IMG/VR virus record: IMGVR_UViG_3300042914_003763
Coordinates: 53,114 to 117,113 of that record
DNA: 64,000 bases
Direction: 5' to 3' (one strand)
DNA from: a virus
Position 1 is the first letter of the stretch; every line of letters starts with the position of its first letter. The notes beneath the pieces are model-generated. The model ran no database searches. It saw nothing but the letters and a program-made list of their open reading frames with translations, and was not told the DNA's origin. Made by a program: the position numbers and the translations under genes. This document shows, in pieces, positions 55,923-62,997 of this stretch.

Positions 55923-57845
55923 TTACAGTTTGCTTATTGATGTAAGAACTGTGAACTCTCTACCACCGTTACGTGGTTTAATAGTACGTGGTATTCCTAC
56001 CACTTCATCATCTATGTTAAGCGAACTAACAACTGAATTACGTTCAGCTGTTACGATAACTCCTGTTTCTATACACCTAAAGTTATTACCATGACGACTA
56101 CCGCCTATGTAACGATACTTACGCATGGTAGTTGCTAAACAAACTTTATAGTTTTCAGGATTACTATCCTTACTAACTATATTGTTAGTTGAAATTAGTT
56201 GGGTTAACTTAGTAACGTTATCCTTAATTTGAAATAACTTCTTACTAATTAACTCATGTTGATAATCACGTCTATCTTGACTGTTATTAATGAATCTCTT
56301 ATATAAGTTCATTAACGTTGCAATATCGCAGTCCTTAACTGGGTTAGTTGCAACACTAATATCACCTTTAAAGAAATTACCTACTCCTAATAATGAAGTT
56401 GCTAGGATAGTTGTACTAACACAACCTAACTCAAGAGACTTAACTAGCATCACAGCTAAGTTAGTATCAAGAGGTAATTTACTAACTTCGATACCAAAGT
56501 TAGTTATAGCACCTAACTCATCAATACAACCCCATTTAGTTAATAACTCAATTGCATTATTAACTGCATCTTCTGTAGGTTGATGCACGAAAGATAAGTC
56601 TCTAAGTGATTTATTTATTTTTCTAACTGACAACTCTAAAGACTCAACATTAATTCTTTTTATTTCAGGGATAGGGAACTTGATACGAGAACTATAGCTA
56701 GTATCACTAACCAGATAATACGTACCATCACAAGTACGTCCAGTTCTTCCCTTACGCTGATCAAGTTCGGCTTGACTACATAATGTAGGTGATATTTTCC
56801 ATATACCATCTACAGATGATACTTCTTTCTTGATACCGTAATCAACCACAACTTGCAGGTTTTCTGGTGTTACACCTGCGGCACATATGTCTGTGCTTAA
56901 AATTATTTCGCTAACACCATGATCCTTGATGGTGTCATGGATATTATCAACCTCACTATGACAGTGAGTGATACGAACATTTATTTTTTCTACCTCGAAG
57001 TAGGACTTCAATTCATGATCTAATTCAATAATTTCTCCCTTACCAGCTAGGAATATCAGAATACGATCACCATTACTAACGTGCTTTTTCAGAGATAGAA
57101 ATAACTCTTTATTATTACCAAGATGATGTTCAACTATGGGACATTTCACACCACCCATGTGGATGTTACCAATTGAATAGCCATCAAAATAGCTATTAAT
57201 TTCATCGTCATTGAGAGTTGCACTAACAATCAATACGCGGGTTTTCCAACCATTAGCTAAACGTTGTTTAATTAAAGCAAGACATAATTCTTGCTGTTGA
57301 CTAAACTCATGACATTCATCTATTGCCACAAAGTCCGGTTCAAATGTCGGATCTAATAACTGATTTACTAATACACCTGTAGTAACAAACATTCCAGGAG
57401 CATTAGTATTGAACGACGCATTACCGTTGCGATAACCAACTTTACACTGCTTACTACAATACTCGTGAAGAGAATAAGTATTTATAATTCTTGGTTGTGC
57501 GGATATTATATTATAACCAGCGTTAACTAATTGGATCATTGAATTAGTTGACTTACCTGATCCAGTATCACCACGCAGAATAGTTATCTGGTTTTGCATG
57601 ACTTTAGATACAAAATCAGATAATGGGTTGCTAACGCTTAACAATTTTTCTATCGCTATTTGTTGTTGTTGTAATTTAACCGTTAATCTTTTTTCGAGAT
57701 CGATCAACTTAACAATATATTTCTTTTTACCTAGACCGATCAACTTGAATAAACTGCTAATTTCACCTTTGATACGACGAATGCTAACTACTAATTCATT
57801 ATTAGAAGAATTAACGGAAACTTGATTTAAAGATAATGCTTGCAT
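55923..57845 (-). CDS. DEAH/RHA (HrpA/HrpB-like) RNA helicase
   Basis: GDTGSGKST, QPR, DECHE, SAT, FLAG, QRKGRTGR, HA2-like region. Confidence 0.9.
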   Translation of the reverse strand: MQALSLNQVSVNSSNNELVVSIRRIKGEISSLFKLIGLGKKKYIVKLIDLEKRLTVKLQQQQIAIEKLLSVSNPLSDFVSKVMQNQITILRGDTGSGKSTNSMIQLVNAGYNIISAQPRIINTYSLHEYCSKQCKVGYRNGNASFNTNAPGMFVTTGVLVNQLLDPTFEPDFVAIDECHEFSQQQELCLALIKQRLANGWKTRVLIVSATLNDDEINSYFDGYSIGNIHMGGVKCPIVEHHLGNNKELFLSLKKHVSNGDRILIFLAGKGEIIELDHELKSYFEVEKINVRITHCHSEVDNIHDTIKDHGVSEIILSTDICAAGVTPENLQVVVDYGIKKEVSSVDGIWKISPTLCSQAELDQRKGRTGRTCDGTYYLVSDTSYSSRIKFPIPEIKRINVESLELSVRKINKSLRDLSFVHQPTEDAVNNAIELLTKWGCIDELGAITNFGIEVSKLPLDTNLAVMLVKSLELGCVSTTILATSLLGVGNFFKGDISVATNPVKDCDIATLMNLYKRFINNSQDRRDYQHELISKKLFQIKDNVTKLTQLISTNNIVSKDSNPENYKVCLATTMRKYRYIGGSRHGNNFRCIETGVIVTAERNSVVSSLNIDDEVVGIPRTIKPRNGGREFTVLTSISKL

Positions 57846-58029
57846 GACTCGAAACTCCTACTTGGTTATGTTAATGTCGGTTAGAAAATGAACACTTGTT
57901 ATATCAATAAAAAACCTATTGTTGCTACTAACAATAACAACAATAGGTGATATAACCAAGTCTGGTTAATTGTTAGTTAACCAGCAGCATCTATCAAATA
58001 CATAACACTTGATAGATGCAACTGAATAA

Positions 58030-58224
58030 CTAATTTCTGAAGTATCTTTTCAGATACTTTTCAATCTTTAAATAACTGACATTAGGATCAGCTTTTAAAG
58101 ATTGATAATGTTCTACTGGTACATGGCATACTAAAACCACATTACCAATAGAACCTAATATAGTTAATGATGGGTAAGAGTTAGGATCGAAATTATCACT
58201 AACTCTCATGATTATGTGTGGCAT
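58030..58224 (-). CDS. Small protein (weak subtilisin-propeptide/I9-like pattern)
   Basis: SLKADPNVSYL. Confidence 0.4.
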   Translation of the reverse strand: MPHIIMRVSDNFDPNSYPSLTILGSIGNVVLVCHVPVEHYQSLKADPNVSYLKIEKYLKRYFRN

Positions 58225-58735
58225 TATTGCTATCTAAGCTATGATCTGGAAGTGGTTTCTTATTCCACTTTGTATTTACACTTTCACCACTGTTACGATC
58301 TATTAGAACCACTTCTACATTATCGTTATCAGTTGTATCAATTTCGATTTGTAGTTTGTTTATGGTGTTGTTGTAGATAGCTATTTTTTGATTACTACTC
58401 TTTTCATCACCAAACCAATACAGTTCAGGATTTAAAACATATCCTCTAGCTCGTTTACAACCATAAGGATATTTAAGAATATAATTTTTATCTACTAATT
58501 TTTTAATAGCAGCTTTAATATTACTTTCATTGAGATTAAAATATTTAGCTAACTTTTTAATAACAGAAGTTGACACATAACCCTCATTGAATTTAACTTC
58601 TAACTGAATATAGTTAAATACTTTTACCCATAAAGGATAATCAGGATCGTCATGTATTCTTAATAATGCACGTTTTCTTGTCTTGAGAAAGACATTAAGA
58701 TCGTCACTTTCTCTCATATTGGAATTATTTGTCAT
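58199..58735 (-). CDS. Winged-HTH protein, RepL-like
   Basis: LAKYFNLNESNIKAAIKKLVDKNYI, YVLNPELYWFG; start re-set to MTNN. Confidence 0.6.
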   Translation of the reverse strand: MTNNSNMRESDDLNVFLKTRKRALLRIHDDPDYPLWVKVFNYIQLEVKFNEGYVSTSVIKKLAKYFNLNESNIKAAIKKLVDKNYILKYPYGCKRARGYVLNPELYWFGDEKSSNQKIAIYNNTINKLQIEIDTTDNDNVEVVLIDRNSGESVNTKWNKKPLPDHSLDSNNATHNHES

Positions 58736-58768
58736 AATGGTTAAAGGTAAACGTCTATAACCATTATA

Positions 58769-58816
58769 ATAAGTACGAACCATTAGTACCACTTAGTACG
58801 AACTGTTCGTACTTAT
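58769..58816. promoter_or_regulatory. Direct and inverted AGTACGAAC repeats (operator/iteron-like)
   Basis: AGTACGAAC at 58772 and 58795; palindrome AGTACGAAC-T-GTTCGTACT at 58795-58813; beside a - strand TATAAT. Confidence 0.6.
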
Positions 58817-59017
58817 TTTACTTTAAACAAGTAGTAAATACTGTAAATCAACTACGTTACTTCTTTTATATCTTTTAACGTAGTGATCAATTAATTCTCC
58901 ATTACTTATAAATTAGTAATGATAACATTTTTTGTTTTTTTTTTCAAAGTAATAATAGTTTTAACAAAAAAAGTTACCCATACTTGCAGATACAGGTAAC
59001 TAATTCACACAAAGAAT

Positions 59018-59043
59018 AGCAGTTTAACGACGTGCTTAGGTCA
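59018..59043 (-). ncRNA. H-type pseudoknot motif, copy 3
   Basis: UGAC-CUAAGCAC-GUCG-UUAAAC-UGCU. Confidence 0.6.
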
Positions 59044-59048
59044 AGATG

Positions 59049-59312
59049 CTATTTTTGGTTGTTTTTTATTTCTAAGTAAGCAGTACGGGACATGAACCCG
59101 TACTCTGTTTTTATTTCATCGGAAAGTGGAACACGGATTAACCGTGTGTCAGGATCGGCATAGTCAGCATTAGGACGTAATTGTCCTAATGTCTGTAGAT
59201 CCCAAGAACGGGATCTACCTACAGACATAAGTTCACCATTTAAGGATATGGCGTATCCGAAATTTTGTTTTATTTCTTCTTCTCTAAATTTATGTGTCTT
59301 TGTTTTTGACAT
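59049..59312 (-). CDS. Hypothetical protein downstream of the hammerhead
   Basis: 87 aa, AGGAG RBS. Confidence 0.6.
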   Translation of the reverse strand: MSKTKTHKFREEEIKQNFGYAISLNGELMSVGRSRSWDLQTLGQLRPNADYADPDTRLIRVPLSDEIKTEYGFMSRTAYLEIKNNQK

Positions 59313-59330
59313 CTTTTTCTCCTTTAGTTT

Positions 59331-59389
59331 GTCTCATCAGTGCATAGGTAACTAGCCTATACAGACAGGGTTAATAACCCTGTTTCGAC
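59331..59389 (-). ncRNA. Type II hammerhead ribozyme
   Basis: GUC-GAAA-CAGGG(loop)CCCUG-UC/-UGUAUAGG(loop)CCUAUGCA-CUGAUGA-GAC: full catalytic core and three stems. Confidence 0.9.
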
Positions 59390-59698
59390 TTAATAACAAG
59401 AATAAGCTAATTCCTCTATTAAGACTTCATGATCTTCGCAGTATGCAATTGCATCTATGAGATATTGACGTTTTAATATTGACTCATAACTCCATTCGGT
59501 TATGTTCTTTAAATCACTTATCGTCTTACAACATTTAAATGTTGTATATATTCCCTGTTTAATCCATTCTTGATCGGTTAAGACCACTAGAATAGTAAAT
59601 TTCCGATCATATAATTTTATTAACTCACAATCGGAAACTTTATCAAATACTTCTAATAGTTGATCTGAGTTGATAACTGTTTTAAGTAGAGTAGTCAT
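59390..59698 (-). CDS. Hypothetical protein
   Basis: 102 aa; its RBS region contains GGAGATAGAAAAAAA. Confidence 0.55.
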   Translation of the reverse strand: MTTLLKTVINSDQLLEVFDKVSDCELIKLYDRKFTILVVLTDQEWIKQGIYTTFKCCKTISDLKNITEWSYESILKRQYLIDAIAYCEDHEVLIEELAYSCY

Positions 59699-60017
59699 TT
59701 TTTTTCTATCTCCAGTAATTGAATAAACATGACAATCCTATTGCAATACGGTACATGAGGTATTGCAACACTGTTAGTAATTAACTAGCAGCAAAGTGTA
59801 ACTAACTAATTACGTTATGTAAGTAAGTTAGTTACACTTAACTGGTATTTAATTTTTTGGTTATTGTAGTACGTTAGTTGTACTACTTCTTTAACGTCTT
59901 AACCTTACATTATATAAGTAACAAGACGTGATCTATTGCAACAAAAAAGCTACCTATAAGTTAATATAGGTAGCTTAGTTGTATGATCTTTTTTTTTTGA
60001 TTAAGTAACTAAGGTAG

Positions 60018-61100
60018 TTACCTACTCACCCCTGTTTGACGGTACAAGTTAAACGGTGTACCGACATCAGGTAATCTAGTTACCTTAGTTACGGTAACTG
60101 GTTTAATTACCTTAACTATTGATTGTACTTGTTTAGTTGTTGTAGTAGGTTTAGTTGTTGTTGGTTTAGTCTTACTAACCTTACTACATATGGTAATTTT
60201 ATTTTCTTGTTGTGTTAGCTGTTTATCTACAGCTAACGTTAAGTTATTAACACTTACGACATATTTTTGATTAATATTATTTACAACTTGGAATTTATCA
60301 TATGTAATTAGCTTAACTACCTTAACAAGATGTTTGTTATGTGGTTTATCTAGGTTAGGTGTAAACCAACATATGTCATCTATATTAAACAACTTCTCTT
60401 CATAATAGCTAAAGCTACTATGAGAGCTTTCAACTTTGATGTAGTCTGTTTCTGATAGCTTACTTGGTTTTATCTTTTCTACTTGTTTACGAGAGATTTT
60501 ATCTCTCTTATTCATTCTGATTATTTCAGTACGTCTAAGACCAGGTACTTTTTCATAAGTACCTACGAAGTCTTTTACACCCTCTATACGTTGCAAGAGA
60601 GGTAGAAAAACAGAGTTAAATATTTCTTCTCCAGAGAAGAAATCAGTACCTTGAATAGTACCGATCTCGATAAACACATAAGTGTTATATGACTGATCTT
60701 GTTTGTTGTTTATCAAGTCATACTCTCTAGGGAAACCTAGATCGAGAATATAATCACTTAATTTAAAATTATGTGTAATATAACCTGCTTCAACTAGGTC
60801 TTTTTTAGTATCTATTGCATTATTATTAATAATCTTATTTATTTTTTCTATGACTAACATCTCTTGACCATTATCGGTATGAAGTACATACCAAGATGAG
60901 GGTAAGTCTCTAGTGTTAGTAACTATAGTTGTATTTTCTGTAATGTTGTTAGTCATATGATGTTTCCAGATTAATTTTTGTAATGTTACATGAGGTAACA
61001 ATGTGTTTAGTTTATTGAATATATTAATTTTTTTTTCTAATGCAAGCGAAATTAACTCAGTGTGTGGCATTAGAAATAAACTTGTTTTTGTTATTTGCAT
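60018..61100 (-). CDS. Hypothetical protein with T/K-rich tail
   Basis: 360 aa; possible N-terminal HeH-like helices; TKPTTT repeat. Confidence 0.6.
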   Translation of the reverse strand: MQITKTSLFLMPHTELISLALEKKINIFNKLNTLLPHVTLQKLIWKHHMTNNITENTTIVTNTRDLPSSWYVLHTDNGQEMLVIEKINKIINNNAIDTKKDLVEAGYITHNFKLSDYILDLGFPREYDLINNKQDQSYNTYVFIEIGTIQGTDFFSGEEIFNSVFLPLLQRIEGVKDFVGTYEKVPGLRRTEIIRMNKRDKISRKQVEKIKPSKLSETDYIKVESSHSSFSYYEEKLFNIDDICWFTPNLDKPHNKHLVKVVKLITYDKFQVVNNINQKYVVSVNNLTLAVDKQLTQQENKITICSKVSKTKPTTTKPTTTTKQVQSIVKVIKPVTVTKVTRLPDVGTPFNLYRQTGVSR

Positions 61101-61197
61101 AAAAAAAGACTGTTATTGTAACAGTCTGGATATTGTATATAAGCATAAAAAAAACTAGTAACTAAGTTAAGTTACTAGTTCGTTGGTTATGGAGTGT

Positions 61198-62997
61198 TTA
61201 TTCTATAAGTCTATAAGGATACGTATCCTTATAGTCGTAACTAACGTTACCCTTACTCGATTGTGGGATAACGTTTATCCCTAACAGTTGTTTCCAGTTA
61301 ACAGTTATCCTACTACAGAATATTGGGTTAAGCGTCACTATTCCGTGTAGCGTTAGTAGTTGTTTGATCTCTGGTAGATCATTAACTTGATTTTTATTAC
61401 TTATGTAAGTAATACATCCTTTATGGATGTATATGATACCTAAGTAGTGTACTACATGATTAGTACACTGTAATCCTAGTCTACCCAATACTTTACTTTG
61501 CGGGATCTTGTGTTCTTTAAGGAACACTATTAGATCCCGGTTAACTTCCCTATATATAACGTCTTGTTTGTGACGTATAGAATTTATTTGTTTGGATCTA
61601 TGCTGATGATCATAATATATATAATCATCATGATAATTATCAAAACATAATTTTTCAGTGTAACACAGTGACAGATCACCGTGTTTGTTTGTTTGTTTGC
61701 TTAATTTCTCATATACTAATCTGCTACCTAGCAGATCAGATAATGCTGTTAAGCTTAAACACATATCACTGAGATATGTTCTTAGTGATAGATCAGACGA
61801 TGGTATTTTACTCGTTACGTCACTCTTTGATCTTTTACTTAATATATTATTTTGTTTAACTTTAGCACCCGTAGATCGAGTGATTATGATATCTTGTATT
61901 CTTTTATGATCCTGTTCTACACAGGTGTTGTAGTCCCAACTTGTGTTTATAATTCCGTTGAATATGTTTAGATCCGGGATCATTATGATCCTATTTTCTA
62001 ATGGATCGAGTTGTAAACTTATACAACTCATCAGATCCGCGTGAAGCGTATCAACCCGGATCTGTTTAATAAACTCATAATATGAGTCATCTAAAGATTG
62101 TAGTATGTTAAATGCAATTAACAATGGTGATTTGAGTATTTTTACATACTCACCGCTATCTTGTATCAAGTACCCTATTAAGGAATATAAAACATCATGA
62201 TTTATGCTTTCAAAATATTTATTACTACGCTTATACATTTGGTTAAGTTGTTTGAAACTTAACTTAGTAACATTCTCTTTAATACTACTAATCAAAGAAA
62301 ACGTGTTTGGATCATATTCTATCTTCCAGATACTTTTAGGGTTATTATTATATTGTTCCGAAATTAAATTAAGTAAAATATGATCTTCACAGTCATATCT
62401 TACAGTTATTTTTTGTTTATTATATTCACTTTGTAATTCATCTGGTATATCTATAGTTATTTTTTCTATCTCGAAAGATAGTAAGCCACGTAGTTTAATA
62501 CCTGTAGGATTATCTGGTATTGAGATAATGCAACGATTAACCCAGTAGTCTATACCTTGGAAACTGTTACTTCTTACTGGTGGATTCTCTTTAATTCTTT
62601 GTAATATTGATTGTTTGTAAGTAGGCTTAATAAATTTGTTTTTATTTTTTTTGTTTATATTATTTTCTTTATTGTTACGTTCTATACTGACAAGATCAAC
62701 ATTATAATAATCGTTAATCCGTGATCCGGTATGATCTGATGTTAAATCATCAGATGATACCTGATCATCTATACTGAAAGGTTGATTTAACCTTTTTTGA
62801 TCTTGTAATCTTACGTCATTATTAATATCTAAAACTGTATGTTTATTTTTATTATTAGTATTAGTTGCATCCTCTTGAGTTAATGCAGCATTAGAAATTA
62901 AAAGTTCAATTATCTCTTGTGATTTAAGATTTGCTTTTATACCGTGTTTTTTAGCAAGTGATTGTAACTCACTTCTAGATAAAGTTGTGTATTTCAT
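61198..62997 (-). CDS. Large protein with N-terminal SAP/HeH/Rho_N nucleic-acid-binding motif
   Basis: LSRSELQSLAKKHGIKANLKSQEIIELL. Confidence 0.65.
   Translation of the reverse strand: MKYTTLSRSELQSLAKKHGIKANLKSQEIIELLISNAALTQEDATNTNNKNKHTVLDINNDVRLQDQKRLNQPFSIDDQVSSDDLTSDHTGSRINDYYNVDLVSIERNNKENNINKKNKNKFIKPTYKQSILQRIKENPPVRSNSFQGIDYWVNRCIISIPDNPTGIKLRGLLSFEIEKITIDIPDELQSEYNKQKITVRYDCEDHILLNLISEQYNNNPKSIWKIEYDPNTFSLISSIKENVTKLSFKQLNQMYKRSNKYFESINHDVLYSLIGYLIQDSGEYVKILKSPLLIAFNILQSLDDSYYEFIKQIRVDTLHADLMSCISLQLDPLENRIIMIPDLNIFNGIINTSWDYNTCVEQDHKRIQDIIITRSTGAKVKQNNILSKRSKSDVTSKIPSSDLSLRTYLSDMCLSLTALSDLLGSRLVYEKLSKQTNKHGDLSLCYTEKLCFDNYHDDYIYYDHQHRSKQINSIRHKQDVIYREVNRDLIVFLKEHKIPQSKVLGRLGLQCTNHVVHYLGIIYIHKGCITYISNKNQVNDLPEIKQLLTLHGIVTLNPIFCSRITVNWKQLLGINVIPQSSKGNVSYDYKDTYPYRLIE

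What the first reader, a model, noticed from the sequence alone, without database searches (positions are those of the whole stretch)
59331..59389. Canonical type II hammerhead ribozyme between two early genes
Seen on the - strand: the complete core (CUGAUGA, GAAA, GUC triplet), stem I UGUAUAGG/CCUAUGCA, stem III ACAGGG/CCCUGU and a short open stem II GUC/GAC. Predicted cleavage lies between 59364 and 59363. It starts right after the stop of 59390..59698 and ends just before the RBS of 59049..59312. Known: hammerheads occur in phage intergenic regions, with mostly unknown roles. Inference: self-cleavage releases a 5'-OH monocistronic mRNA that also carries the 3' pseudoknot and terminator.
Basis: seen in the sequence. 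Interest (0 to 1): 0.75.

Follow-up and report, generated by a model that had tools for sequence, protein, structure and literature searches.

The report
Type II hammerhead ribozyme between phage genes
A small self-cutting RNA (a type II hammerhead ribozyme) really does sit between two small genes of this uncultured 117-kb phage and most likely cuts their shared message in two, but this kind of element has been known in phages since 2011.

Summary
On the - strand, 59389-59331 holds a complete type II hammerhead: all core nucleotides, an 8-bp stem I, an 8-bp stem III and an open 3-bp stem II. The cut falls between 59364 and 59363.

Rfam Hammerhead_II scores 39.2 bits against a cut-off of 37. 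Whole-window scans lose the hit to speed filters. A loose descriptor finds 1 hit in the genome and 2 in 300 shuffles. Exact-core relatives occur in at least 120 viral stretches, with strong covariation in both stems and the pseudoknot, and the same gene-junction placement.

It is therefore a new member of a known kind (Perreault 2011). This scan has noted such elements 28 times on other DNA.

Three points are specific to this copy:
- It lies in a 404-nt segment (ORF102 + ribozyme + new ribosome site) that close relatives lack.
- It is 90% identical to an unannotated hammerhead in cyanophage CL131, where the flanking genes are unrelated.
- CL131's homologue of the downstream gene is preceded by a type I hammerhead.

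Cleavage itself, "early" timing and the "3' pseudoknot" remain untested.

The parts
59390..59698 (-). ORF102, the upstream gene (102 aa, no family). Its TAA stop (59392-59390) abuts the ribozyme.
   Evidence: No Pfam or PHROG hit. One 92%-identical homologue, P0007.
59387..59389 (-). Stem II, 5'-side strand in the RNA (G11.3 U11.2 C11.1). It pairs with 59333-59331.
   Evidence: Rfam alignment.
59384..59386 (-). Core nucleotides G12 A13 A14.
59365..59383 (-). Stem III hairpin from A15.1 to U16.1 (8 bp, AUU loop). It becomes the 3' end of the upstream product.
   Evidence: Covariation of this stem across 112 unique relatives.
59364..59364 (-). C17. The predicted scissile bond lies between 59364 and 59363.
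   Evidence: Core numbering applied. Cleavage was not tested.
59341..59363 (-). Stem I hairpin (8 bp, loop I CUAGUUA at 59355-59349). It becomes the 5' end of the downstream product.
   Evidence: Covariation.
59334..59340 (-). Core CUGAUGA (C3 to A9).
59331..59333 (-). Stem II, 3'-side strand (G10.1 A10.2 C10.3).
59325..59329 (-). 3' tail AACUA. It forms a 5-bp pseudoknot with loop I UAGUU (59354-59350).
   Evidence: same register as the family mode. Family mean is 4.85 bp against 3.56 +/- 0.085 with shuffled partners.
59319..59324 (-). Shine-Dalgarno AAGGAG of the downstream gene, directly 3' of the pseudoknot strand.
   Evidence: It is unpaired in the fold of the 3' product.
59049..59312 (-). 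ORF87, the downstream gene (87 aa, unknown function).
   Evidence: Six homologues. Homologue gp141 in CL131. No family.
58972..59001 (-). Terminator-like hairpin followed by U7. Probable 3' end of the unit.
59947..59976 (-). Terminator-like hairpin of the preceding gene. It marks the upstream limit of the unit.
59909..59914 (-). TATAAT hexamer without a good -35. Candidate promoter of the two-gene unit (inference).
   Evidence: Seen. Not called by the consensus scan.
59291..59694 (-). A 404-nt segment (ORF102 body + ribozyme + SD + ATG + 22 nt) that is absent from the otherwise collinear relatives L128, L129 and L130.
   Evidence: BLASTN. Junctions are ambiguous by about 16 nt.

Best explanation
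This is a functional type II hammerhead self-cleaving ribozyme, transcribed as part of a two-gene message. The message probably starts near the TATAAT at 59914-59909 and ends at the terminator 59001-58972 (- strand).

Once the 65 nt from 59389 to 59325 are made, stems I and III fold. Loop I pairs with the tail just beyond stem II, which docks stem I beside the short stem II, and the core cuts the chain after C59364.

The upstream RNA (ORF102) then ends in the stem III hairpin with a 2',3'-cyclic phosphate. The downstream RNA (ORF87) begins with a 5'-OH directly at the base of the stem I hairpin, 51 nt ahead of its AUG, with its own free Shine-Dalgarno.

The two genes thereby become separate messages whose stability and translation no longer depend on each other.

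Shown: the motif, its statistical support, covariation in relatives, and its placement. Inferred: cleavage in vivo, the transcript ends, and the consequences for stability and translation.
For: - Core and pairs next to the core all match the consensus used by Perreault et al. 2011 (criteria read; sequence).
- Rfam RF02276 gives 39.2 bits, above the gathering score of 37.
- A loose descriptor gives 1 hit in the genome against 2 in 300 shuffles.
- In 112 unique cores, the variable parts pair over a mean 4.87 bp (stem III) and 4.20 bp (stem I). With shuffled partners the means are 1.11 +/- 0.13 and 1.19 +/- 0.12.
- The pseudoknot is at least 4 bp in 106 of 121 unique sequences, mean 4.85 against 3.56 +/- 0.085. 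Close relatives show compensatory changes: UAGUU/AACUA here, UGGUUA/UAACCA in L042.
- Placement is conserved. The stop codon of an ORF of at least 50 codons ends within 2 nt of the ribozyme's first base in 104 of 125 cases. A downstream ORF starts within 150 nt in 117 of 117, at 10-29 nt in 92 of 117.
- The fold of the 3' product puts its first base in the stem I hairpin and leaves the SD open.
- Terminator-like hairpins bracket the two-gene unit.
- Perreault et al. showed that such type II ribozymes cleave in vitro and in E. coli, and that the pseudoknot is needed for fast cleavage (passages read).
Against: - No cleavage assay or end mapping exists for this sequence.
- The four public runs that hold part of the stretch are kept only as assembled contigs, which cannot show RNA ends.
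- Whole-window Rfam scans did not report the hit.
- The promoter is only a lone -10 hexamer that the consensus scan did not call, so co-transcription of the two ORFs is inferred.
- The MFE fold of the 81-nt region is only modestly better than shuffles (z -2.05).
- Close relatives express the ORF87 homologue without any ribozyme, so the ribozyme is not needed for that gene as such.
- Only 68 of 117 family members have a recognisable SD by my simple pattern.
Confidence: 0.8

Rival explanations
1. The ribozyme is mainly the portable junction of a gene cassette. Under this reading, ORF102 arrived in front of a resident gene together with a hammerhead and a fresh ribosome-binding site, so the resident gene stays expressed without polar effects. 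This does not exclude cleavage; it says why the element is there.
For: - Relatives L128, L129 and L130 are collinear with the window at 86-93% identity on both sides. They lack 59694..59291, which is exactly ORF102 + ribozyme + SD + ATG + 22 nt.
- L131 and L132 also lack a ribozyme before the homologue.
- The ribozyme is the most similar DNA segment between this genome and CL131 (90.1% over 71 nt; other segments 69-80%). The ORFs on either side of it are unrelated.
- Its variable parts are 83% identical to CL131's, against a family median of 45%.
- L108 has two ribozymes 310 nt apart where L005, L055 and L105 have one.
Against: - The direction of the event (insertion here or deletion in relatives) is not established.
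- My test of whether homology breaks more often at ribozymes than at control points was inconclusive. Continuity was 0.28 and 0.23 across the ribozyme, against controls of 0.70, 0.56, 0.31 and 0.72. At cluster level it was 7 of 14 against 7 of 16.
- No relative of ORF102 with its context could be fetched (one search found none in viral contigs).
Confidence: 0.3
2. The ribozyme is a conditional switch rather than a constitutive cutter. A ribosome terminating at the TAA that abuts the ribozyme covers the stem II strand and GAAA and so blocks folding. Alternatively, the pseudoknot beside the SD tunes ORF87 translation.
For: The stop codon lies within 2 nt of the ribozyme's first base in 104 of 125 relatives, and the start codon follows closely. 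The pseudoknot strand 59329-59325 touches the SD 59324-59319. Perreault et al. raise regulated folding as a possibility (discussion passage).
Against: Tight spacing may simply reflect phage genome compaction. The SD is unpaired in the predicted fold of the product. No alternative conserved structure was found.
Confidence: 0.12
3. The motif is a chance match or a decayed, inactive hammerhead-like sequence.
For: Whole-window Rfam scans gave no hit. The score is only 2.2 bits above the gathering cut-off.
Against: All 13 core positions and the three core-adjacent pairs are intact. There were 2 descriptor hits in 300 shuffles. The whole-genome E-value is 7.7e-8. The sequence is conserved at 90% in CL131 amid unrelated flanks. 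The pseudoknot is in the family's usual register.
Confidence: 0.04
4. The ribozyme works with a second ribozyme to excise and circularise or splice an RNA.
For: Perreault et al. mention this possibility for clustered hammerheads, but they could not detect such products (passage read).
Against: Only one hammerhead of any permutation is found in the 117-kb genome. No other ribozyme family is found in the 1.2-kb unit.
Confidence: 0.02

Closest known systems
Type II hammerhead ribozymes with a loop I/3'-tail pseudoknot (Rfam RF02276; Perreault et al. 2011, PMC3088659)
   Same: Same core, same permutation (stems I and III capped, stem II open and 2-3 bp), same pseudoknot position immediately after stem II, and the same habitat (phage and prophage intergenic spacers). 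It scores above the Rfam gathering cut-off.
   Different: It is a single copy in the genome rather than a cluster flanking genes. It is AT-rich (GC 0.40), and default Rfam filters lose it on long input.
Unannotated type II hammerhead of Aphanizomenon cyanophage vB_AphaS-CL131 (MG209611, 97349-97421, - strand)
   Same: 90.1% identical over 71 nt, including both stems and the tail. It also sits directly before an SD and ATG. The two phages share 11 ORF matches, covering 10 loci, at E <= 1e-5.
   Different: The flanking ORFs are unrelated. CL131 has a 55-nt spacer after the upstream stop. Its stem I has a bulged G and a C-G where the window has U-G. It scores 36.2 bits, just under the cut-off. 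The CL131 genome paper contains neither 'hammerhead' nor 'ribozyme' (main text searched).
HHphage hammerhead of haloviruses HF1/HF2, 13 nt upstream of a helicase start codon (as described in Perreault et al. 2011)
   Same: A lone phage hammerhead just ahead of a start codon in a multi-gene transcript. The mapped 5' end lies within 3 nt of the cut site, which supports in vivo processing (passage read).
   Different: It is an archaeal virus with a core variant and a different gene. No end mapping exists for the window's element.
Engineered ribozyme insulators placed between promoter or upstream gene and an RBS (e.g. RiboJ; recalled from memory, no call)
   Same: Self-cleavage just upstream of an RBS leaves a defined 5' end with a hairpin and uncouples a gene from its upstream context.
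   Different: These are synthetic constructs based on a different hammerhead permutation. The comparison is functional only and is not a membership claim.

Membership tests
Hammerhead ribozyme (any type) | Consensus core: C3 U4 G5 A6 N7 G8 A9, G12 A13 A14, A15.1, U16.1, H17. | tested here: met
   CUGAUGA at 59340-59334, GAA at 59386-59384, A 59383, U 59365, C 59364. Criteria as listed in PMC3088659 methods.
Hammerhead ribozyme (any type) | No mispair directly next to the core (N10.1-N11.1, N1.1-N2.1, A15.1-U16.1). | tested here: met
   G59333-C59387, U59363-A59341 and A59383-U59365.
Hammerhead ribozyme (any type) | Mg2+-dependent site-specific self-cleavage giving 2',3'-cyclic phosphate and 5'-OH ends. 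| not testable with these tools
Public runs are held as contigs only.
Type II hammerhead (Rfam RF02276) | Permutation: stems I and III closed by loops, stem II open. | tested here: met
   Rfam alignment.
Type II hammerhead (Rfam RF02276) | Score at or above the curated gathering cut-off (37 bits). | tested here: met
   39.2 bits. Not reported in whole-window scans because of speed filters.
Type II hammerhead (Rfam RF02276) | Pseudoknot of at least 4 bp between loop I and the nucleotides just 3' of stem II. This is present in the majority of members, not all. | tested here: met
   UAGUU 59354-59350 with AACUA 59329-59325, 5 bp, tail offset 1 as in the family mode.
Type II hammerhead (Rfam RF02276) | Stems supported by covariation among relatives. 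| tested here: met
   4.87 and 4.20 bp observed, against 1.11 and 1.19 with shuffled partners, in 112 unique cores. The relatives were selected by a pattern that fixes the core and the first two pairs of stems I and III.
Clustered hammerheads flanking single genes in prophages (Perreault 2011, Fig. 3) | Two or more hammerheads close together on one transcript. | tested here: not met
   One hammerhead in 117,113 bp by RF02276, RF00163, RF03152 and my three-permutation descriptor.

The most novel reading that the evidence does not exclude
Hammerhead-plus-RBS modules may act as portable, self-insulating gene junctions in phages. On this reading a new small gene can be dropped in front of a resident gene because the ribozyme that comes with it cuts the message and supplies a hairpin-capped 5' end and a fresh ribosome site for the resident gene.

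Three observations point this way:
- The ribozyme lies inside a 404-nt segment that close relatives lack.
- It is near-identical to one in cyanophage CL131, where it sits between unrelated genes.
- The CL131 homologue of the downstream gene has independently acquired a hammerhead of a different permutation (type I). If placement were independent of gene identity, the chance would be about 2 in 149 genes.
Probability: 0.25. Interest if true: 0.55.

Novelty: new member of a known kind. Interest (0 to 1): 0.3.

Why it matters
In itself this is one more phage intergenic type II hammerhead, a class described in 2011 whose biological role is still called unclear in the 2019 review (PMC6765202, passage read).

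Its value lies in being a clean natural test case. It is a single ribozyme between two small genes in a unit bracketed by terminators, and natural relatives carry the same downstream gene without the ribozyme. Comparing the two forms could show directly what the cut does to message stability and translation.

There is also a practical lesson for annotation. Whole-genome Rfam scans missed it here, and two hammerheads in the isolated cyanophage CL131 are unannotated, one of them overlapped by a called gene start.

Tried and rejected
- **Whole-window Rfam scans.** Both gathering and evalue modes returned nothing. This is explained by filter loss, not by absence of the motif.
- **Public sequencing runs.** Four runs hold 9-32% of the sampled words, and all are kept as contigs. 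When laid, the contigs of X1, X2 and X3 (X1 and X3 on record as RNA, X2 probably DNA) cover only 59019-59239. They then continue into sequence like the ribozyme-free relative L128/L129. X4 (kind unknown) bridges the ribozyme with no differences in 59337-59389. None of this can show RNA ends, so there is no evidence either way on cleavage.
- **Relatives of the flanking genes in viral contigs.** With single proteins, none was found for ORF87 or ORF102. With an alignment of ORF87 homologues, I found 1 viral and 4 metagenome loci.
- **Function of ORF87.** No Pfam or PHROG family. The protein Atlas's best feature hit scored 0.75 and its own model has pLDDT 0.46.
- **Other hammerhead models on both genomes.** RF00163 gave no match. 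RF03152 gave only one 18.6-bit hit elsewhere in CL131.
- **Are hammerheads hot spots of mosaic junctions?** The test was inconclusive.
- **MAFFT alignment of the indel junction** was uninformative because of my choice of ends. The BLASTN coordinates are used instead.
- **TAGTTACC**, which occurs in loop I and in two terminator hairpins, has 9 copies against 2.84 +/- 1.84 expected, and 2 of 100 shuffles reach 9. This is too weak to build on.
- **Literature.** 8 papers hold both 'hammerhead' and 'cyanophage'; judged from their titles and abstract openings, none is about a cyanophage hammerhead (listing only). One literature query failed on a term-format error and was not repeated.

Full report
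**Where the window lies.** The window is bases 53114-117113 of a 117,113-bp IMG/VR virus record with direct terminal repeats, rated complete. The finding lies about 4.6 kb from the right end, on the - strand. That is also the coding strand of all sizeable ORFs between 55.9 and 63.7 kb.

**The observation.**
- The RNA reads GUC (59389-59387), GAA (59386-59384), then the stem III hairpin from A59383 to U59365. This is ACAGGG/CCCUGU, and two further U-A pairs make it 8 bp with an AUU loop.
- C17 is 59364.
- The stem I hairpin is UGUAUAGG/CCUAUGCA (59363-59341, 8 bp with one G-U), with loop CUAGUUA.
- CUGAUGA is 59340-59334 and GAC is 59333-59331.
- The TAA of ORF 59390..59698 ends one base before the ribozyme.
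- The Shine-Dalgarno AAGGAG (59324-59319) and the ATG (59312) of ORF 59049..59312 follow.
- No ORF of 40 aa or more overlaps the element on the other strand.

Loop I UAGUU (59354-59350) is complementary to AACUA (59329-59325), which starts one base after stem II. This is the pseudoknot that Perreault et al. 2011 describe as typical of type II hammerheads and necessary for fast cleavage (PMC3088659, passages read).

**Is it more than chance?**
- Rfam's Hammerhead_II model (RF02276) scores 39.2 bits against a gathering score of 37. E is 8.5e-7 on 301 nt, 3.4e-6 on 1201 nt and 7.7e-8 for the whole genome. It was the only match in the genome, and 0 of 14 control genomes gave any.
- A deliberately loose type II descriptor (core, stems of at least 4 bp, at least 2 bp in stem II) finds one hit in the window, the same single hit in the genome, and two hits in 300 dinucleotide-preserving shuffles.
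- Against this, the gathering scan and the evalue scan of the entire 64-kb window both returned nothing. The identical hit passes when less sequence is given, so this is a loss to the speed filters. It is worth knowing for annotation.

**Relatives.** The pattern GTCGAAAC-N-GTCTG-N-CACTGATGAGAC fixes the core and the first pairs and leaves the rest free.
- In 121 unique ribozyme-plus-tail sequences, stem III is at least 5 bp in 116 and stem I at least 5 contiguous bp in 113. There are 51 and 52 different strand sequences respectively.
- In 112 unique cores, the free parts of the stems pair over a mean 4.87 and 4.20 bp. When 5' and 3' halves are dealt among different sequences, the means are 1.11 +/- 0.13 and 1.19 +/- 0.12.
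- The loop I/tail pseudoknot is at least 4 bp in 106 of 121. Its mean is 4.85 bp against 3.56 +/- 0.085 with shuffled partners, and none of 200 shuffles exceeded 3.75.
- The window's pairing sits in the commonest register.
- One caveat applies: the set was chosen by a pattern derived from the window, so it samples one sub-class and not all type II hammerheads.

**Placement.**
- Among 125 distinct contexts with enough upstream sequence, the stop codon of an ORF of at least 50 codons ends at +1 (63 cases, a TAG sharing its G with GUC), 0 (27, as in the window), -1 (9) or -2 (5) relative to the first ribozyme base. That is 104 of 125, and 5 had no such ORF.
- Downstream, 117 of 117 contexts have an ORF start within 150 nt, with a median of 23 nt after GAC. 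In 92 of 117 the start lies at 10-29 nt; the window's is at 18 nt.
- My simple SD pattern was present in 68 of 117.

The element is thus a standard gene-junction hammerhead.

**The transcription unit.**
- Terminator-like hairpins with U-runs lie on the - strand at 59976..59947 (after the preceding 360-aa ORF) and at 59001..58972 (after ORF87).
- Such sites are strongly enriched in 57800-61300, with 12 found against 0.8 +/- 1.0 expected.
- Between them there is a TATAAT at 59914-59909 with no convincing -35. The consensus scan did not call it.
- Downstream of it lie a 76-nt palindrome (59854-59779), ORF102, the ribozyme and ORF87.
- I therefore infer a two-gene message cut in the middle.
- The predicted 3' product folds with its very first nucleotide in the 8-bp stem I hairpin and the SD unpaired.
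- The 5' product ends in the stem III hairpin.

That each product carries a terminal hairpin, with a 5'-OH on one and a cyclic phosphate on the other, follows from the type II topology and from hammerhead chemistry. That this stabilises the two messages is my inference.

**What is specific to this copy.**

First, in the isolate phage collection the only DNA match to 58900-59800 is the ribozyme itself. It is 90.1% identical over 71 nt to Aphanizomenon phage vB_AphaS-CL131, MG209611 97351-97421.
- There it also precedes an SD and ATG, scores 36.2 bits, and is overlapped by the annotated start of gp126.
- The ORFs on both sides are unrelated to the window's.
- Genome-wide, 11 of 204 ORFs of at least 60 aa from the window's genome (10 loci) hit CL131 at E <= 1e-5, with 25-59% identity. 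The ribozyme is the most similar DNA segment of five.
- Its free stem and loop parts are 83% identical to CL131's, against a family median of 45%. This suggests recent shared origin of the ribozyme rather than slow vertical descent.
- The CL131 genome paper contains neither 'hammerhead' nor 'ribozyme' in its main text (PMC6293099).

Second, ORF87 has a homologue in CL131, gp141 (47.6% identity over 82 aa, E 5e-18), at a different place in that genome.
- Directly upstream of gp141 lies a type I hammerhead. It has stem I of 5 bp, an extra U after CUGAUGA, stem II of 6 bp, stem III of 5 bp, and a loop II/tail pseudoknot UGGCU/AGCCA.
- Rfam models did not report it.
- The same architecture occurs in at least 116 viral stretches, where stem I is exactly 5 bp in 72 of 95 unique cases. 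Its pseudoknot averages 4.11 bp against 3.67 +/- 0.06.
- My three-permutation descriptor finds 1 hammerhead in the window's genome, 2 in CL131 and 0 in 100 shuffles of CL131.
- If placement were independent of gene identity, the chance that the homologue is one of the two ribozyme-preceded genes among 149 is about 1.3%. This is my rough estimate.

Third, the metagenome relatives L128, L129 and L130 are collinear with the window.
- In L129, window 60100-59695 aligns at 92.3% and window 59290-58946 at 91.6%.
- These relatives lack 59694..59291, that is ORF102, the ribozyme, the SD, the ATG and the first 22 nt of ORF87. Their homologue (76 aa) starts directly behind the shared 5' leader.
- L131 and L132 also have no ribozyme before the homologue.
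- Whether the window gained the segment or the relatives lost it is not settled.
- One further ribozyme-bounded indel was seen in the family: L108 has two ribozymes 310 nt apart where L005, L055 and L105 have one.
- A broader test of whether homology between contigs breaks preferentially at the ribozyme was inconclusive. Continuity was 0.28 and 0.23 across it, against controls of 0.70, 0.56, 0.31 and 0.72.

**Comparison with what is known.** All defining features that can be tested by sequence are met: core, core-adjacent pairs, permutation, Rfam cut-off, pseudoknot and covariation. Catalysis cannot be tested here.
- Perreault et al. 2011 described type II hammerheads, the pseudoknot, their frequency near phage genes, and clusters that flank single genes. 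They proposed that long phage transcripts are processed into single-gene messages, and showed cleavage in vitro and in E. coli for three clusters.
- The 2019 review still calls the purpose unresolved (PMC6765202, passage read).
- This scan has already recorded 28 notes on such elements in at least 28 other genomes.

The finding is therefore a new member of a known kind. It differs from the published clusters only in being a single copy.

**Flanking genes.** The function of both flanking genes is unknown. 'Early' expression is plausible from the neighbouring helicase and the weak replication-initiator match, but it was not tested. That region does hold a 19-nt motif that is identical in L131.

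**Verdict.** This is a real, almost certainly active type II hammerhead that splits a two-gene phage message. It is ordinary as a class. The modest extra interest comes from its cassette-like indel and its link to CL131.

Noticed in passing
L125:5170-5235 (- strand; MG209611 about 105170-105235): Unannotated type I hammerhead in cyanophage CL131, directly upstream of gp141, the homologue of the window's ORF87. It has an extra U after CUGAUGA, a 5-bp stem I and a loop II/tail pseudoknot. Rfam RF00163, RF03152 and a local cmscan all miss it, yet the same architecture occurs in at least 116 viral stretches.
   Followed up: yes
L002:2505-2573 (MG209611 97349-97421, - strand): Unannotated type II hammerhead in CL131, 36.2 bits (just under the Rfam cut-off). 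The annotated start of gp126 lies inside it. An ATG with an SD at L002:2580 looks like the real start.
   Followed up: partly
window 59021-59039 (- strand): The 19-nt motif CTAAGCACGTCGTTAAACT lies between the ORF87 stop and the terminator. It is 100% identical in L131 (1449-1467), where it lies upstream of the ORF87 homologue. A looser cousin, TTAAGACGTTAAAG, follows the TATAAT at 59900. Its role is unknown.
   Followed up: partly
window 59779-59854 (- strand): A 76-nt near-perfect palindrome in the leader of the two-gene unit, conserved in L128, L129 and L130 (self-reverse BLAST matches at 83-87%). It is a possible operator or 5' stabiliser hairpin.
   Followed up: no
window 1-64000: Both whole-window Rfam scans (gathering and evalue modes) return nothing, although the hammerhead scores above the gathering cut-off on 301 nt, on 1201 nt and in the genome search. 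Routine annotation would miss it.
   Followed up: yes
window 57800-61300: Terminator-like hairpins with U-runs are strongly enriched (12 found against 0.8 +/- 1.0 in shuffles). Nearly every small gene here has its own, so this region is organised as many short units.
   Followed up: no
window, 9 sites including 59347-59354, 58995-59002 and 60077-60084: TAGTTACC occurs in hammerhead loop I/stem I and in terminator hairpins. There are 9 copies against 2.84 +/- 1.84 expected, and 2 of 100 shuffles reach 9.
   Followed up: partly
window 60018-61100 (- strand): A 360-aa ORF with a weak NusG-domain match (E 3.6e-4, 21.4 bits, just under Pfam's cut-off of 22.2), two genes upstream of the ribozyme unit.
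   Followed up: no
L108 (ribozymes 310 nt apart on its - strand) versus L005, L055 and L105: A small gene plus a second hammerhead is present in L108 and absent in three contigs that share both outer flanks. This is a ribozyme-bounded gene indel.
   Followed up: partly
window 59019-59239: Contigs from two runs on record as RNA (X1, X3), and from X2 (probably DNA), cover part of ORF87. At 59239 they continue into sequence matching the ribozyme-free relative L128/L129. That relative, and not the window's form, is what those libraries hold.
   Followed up: partly
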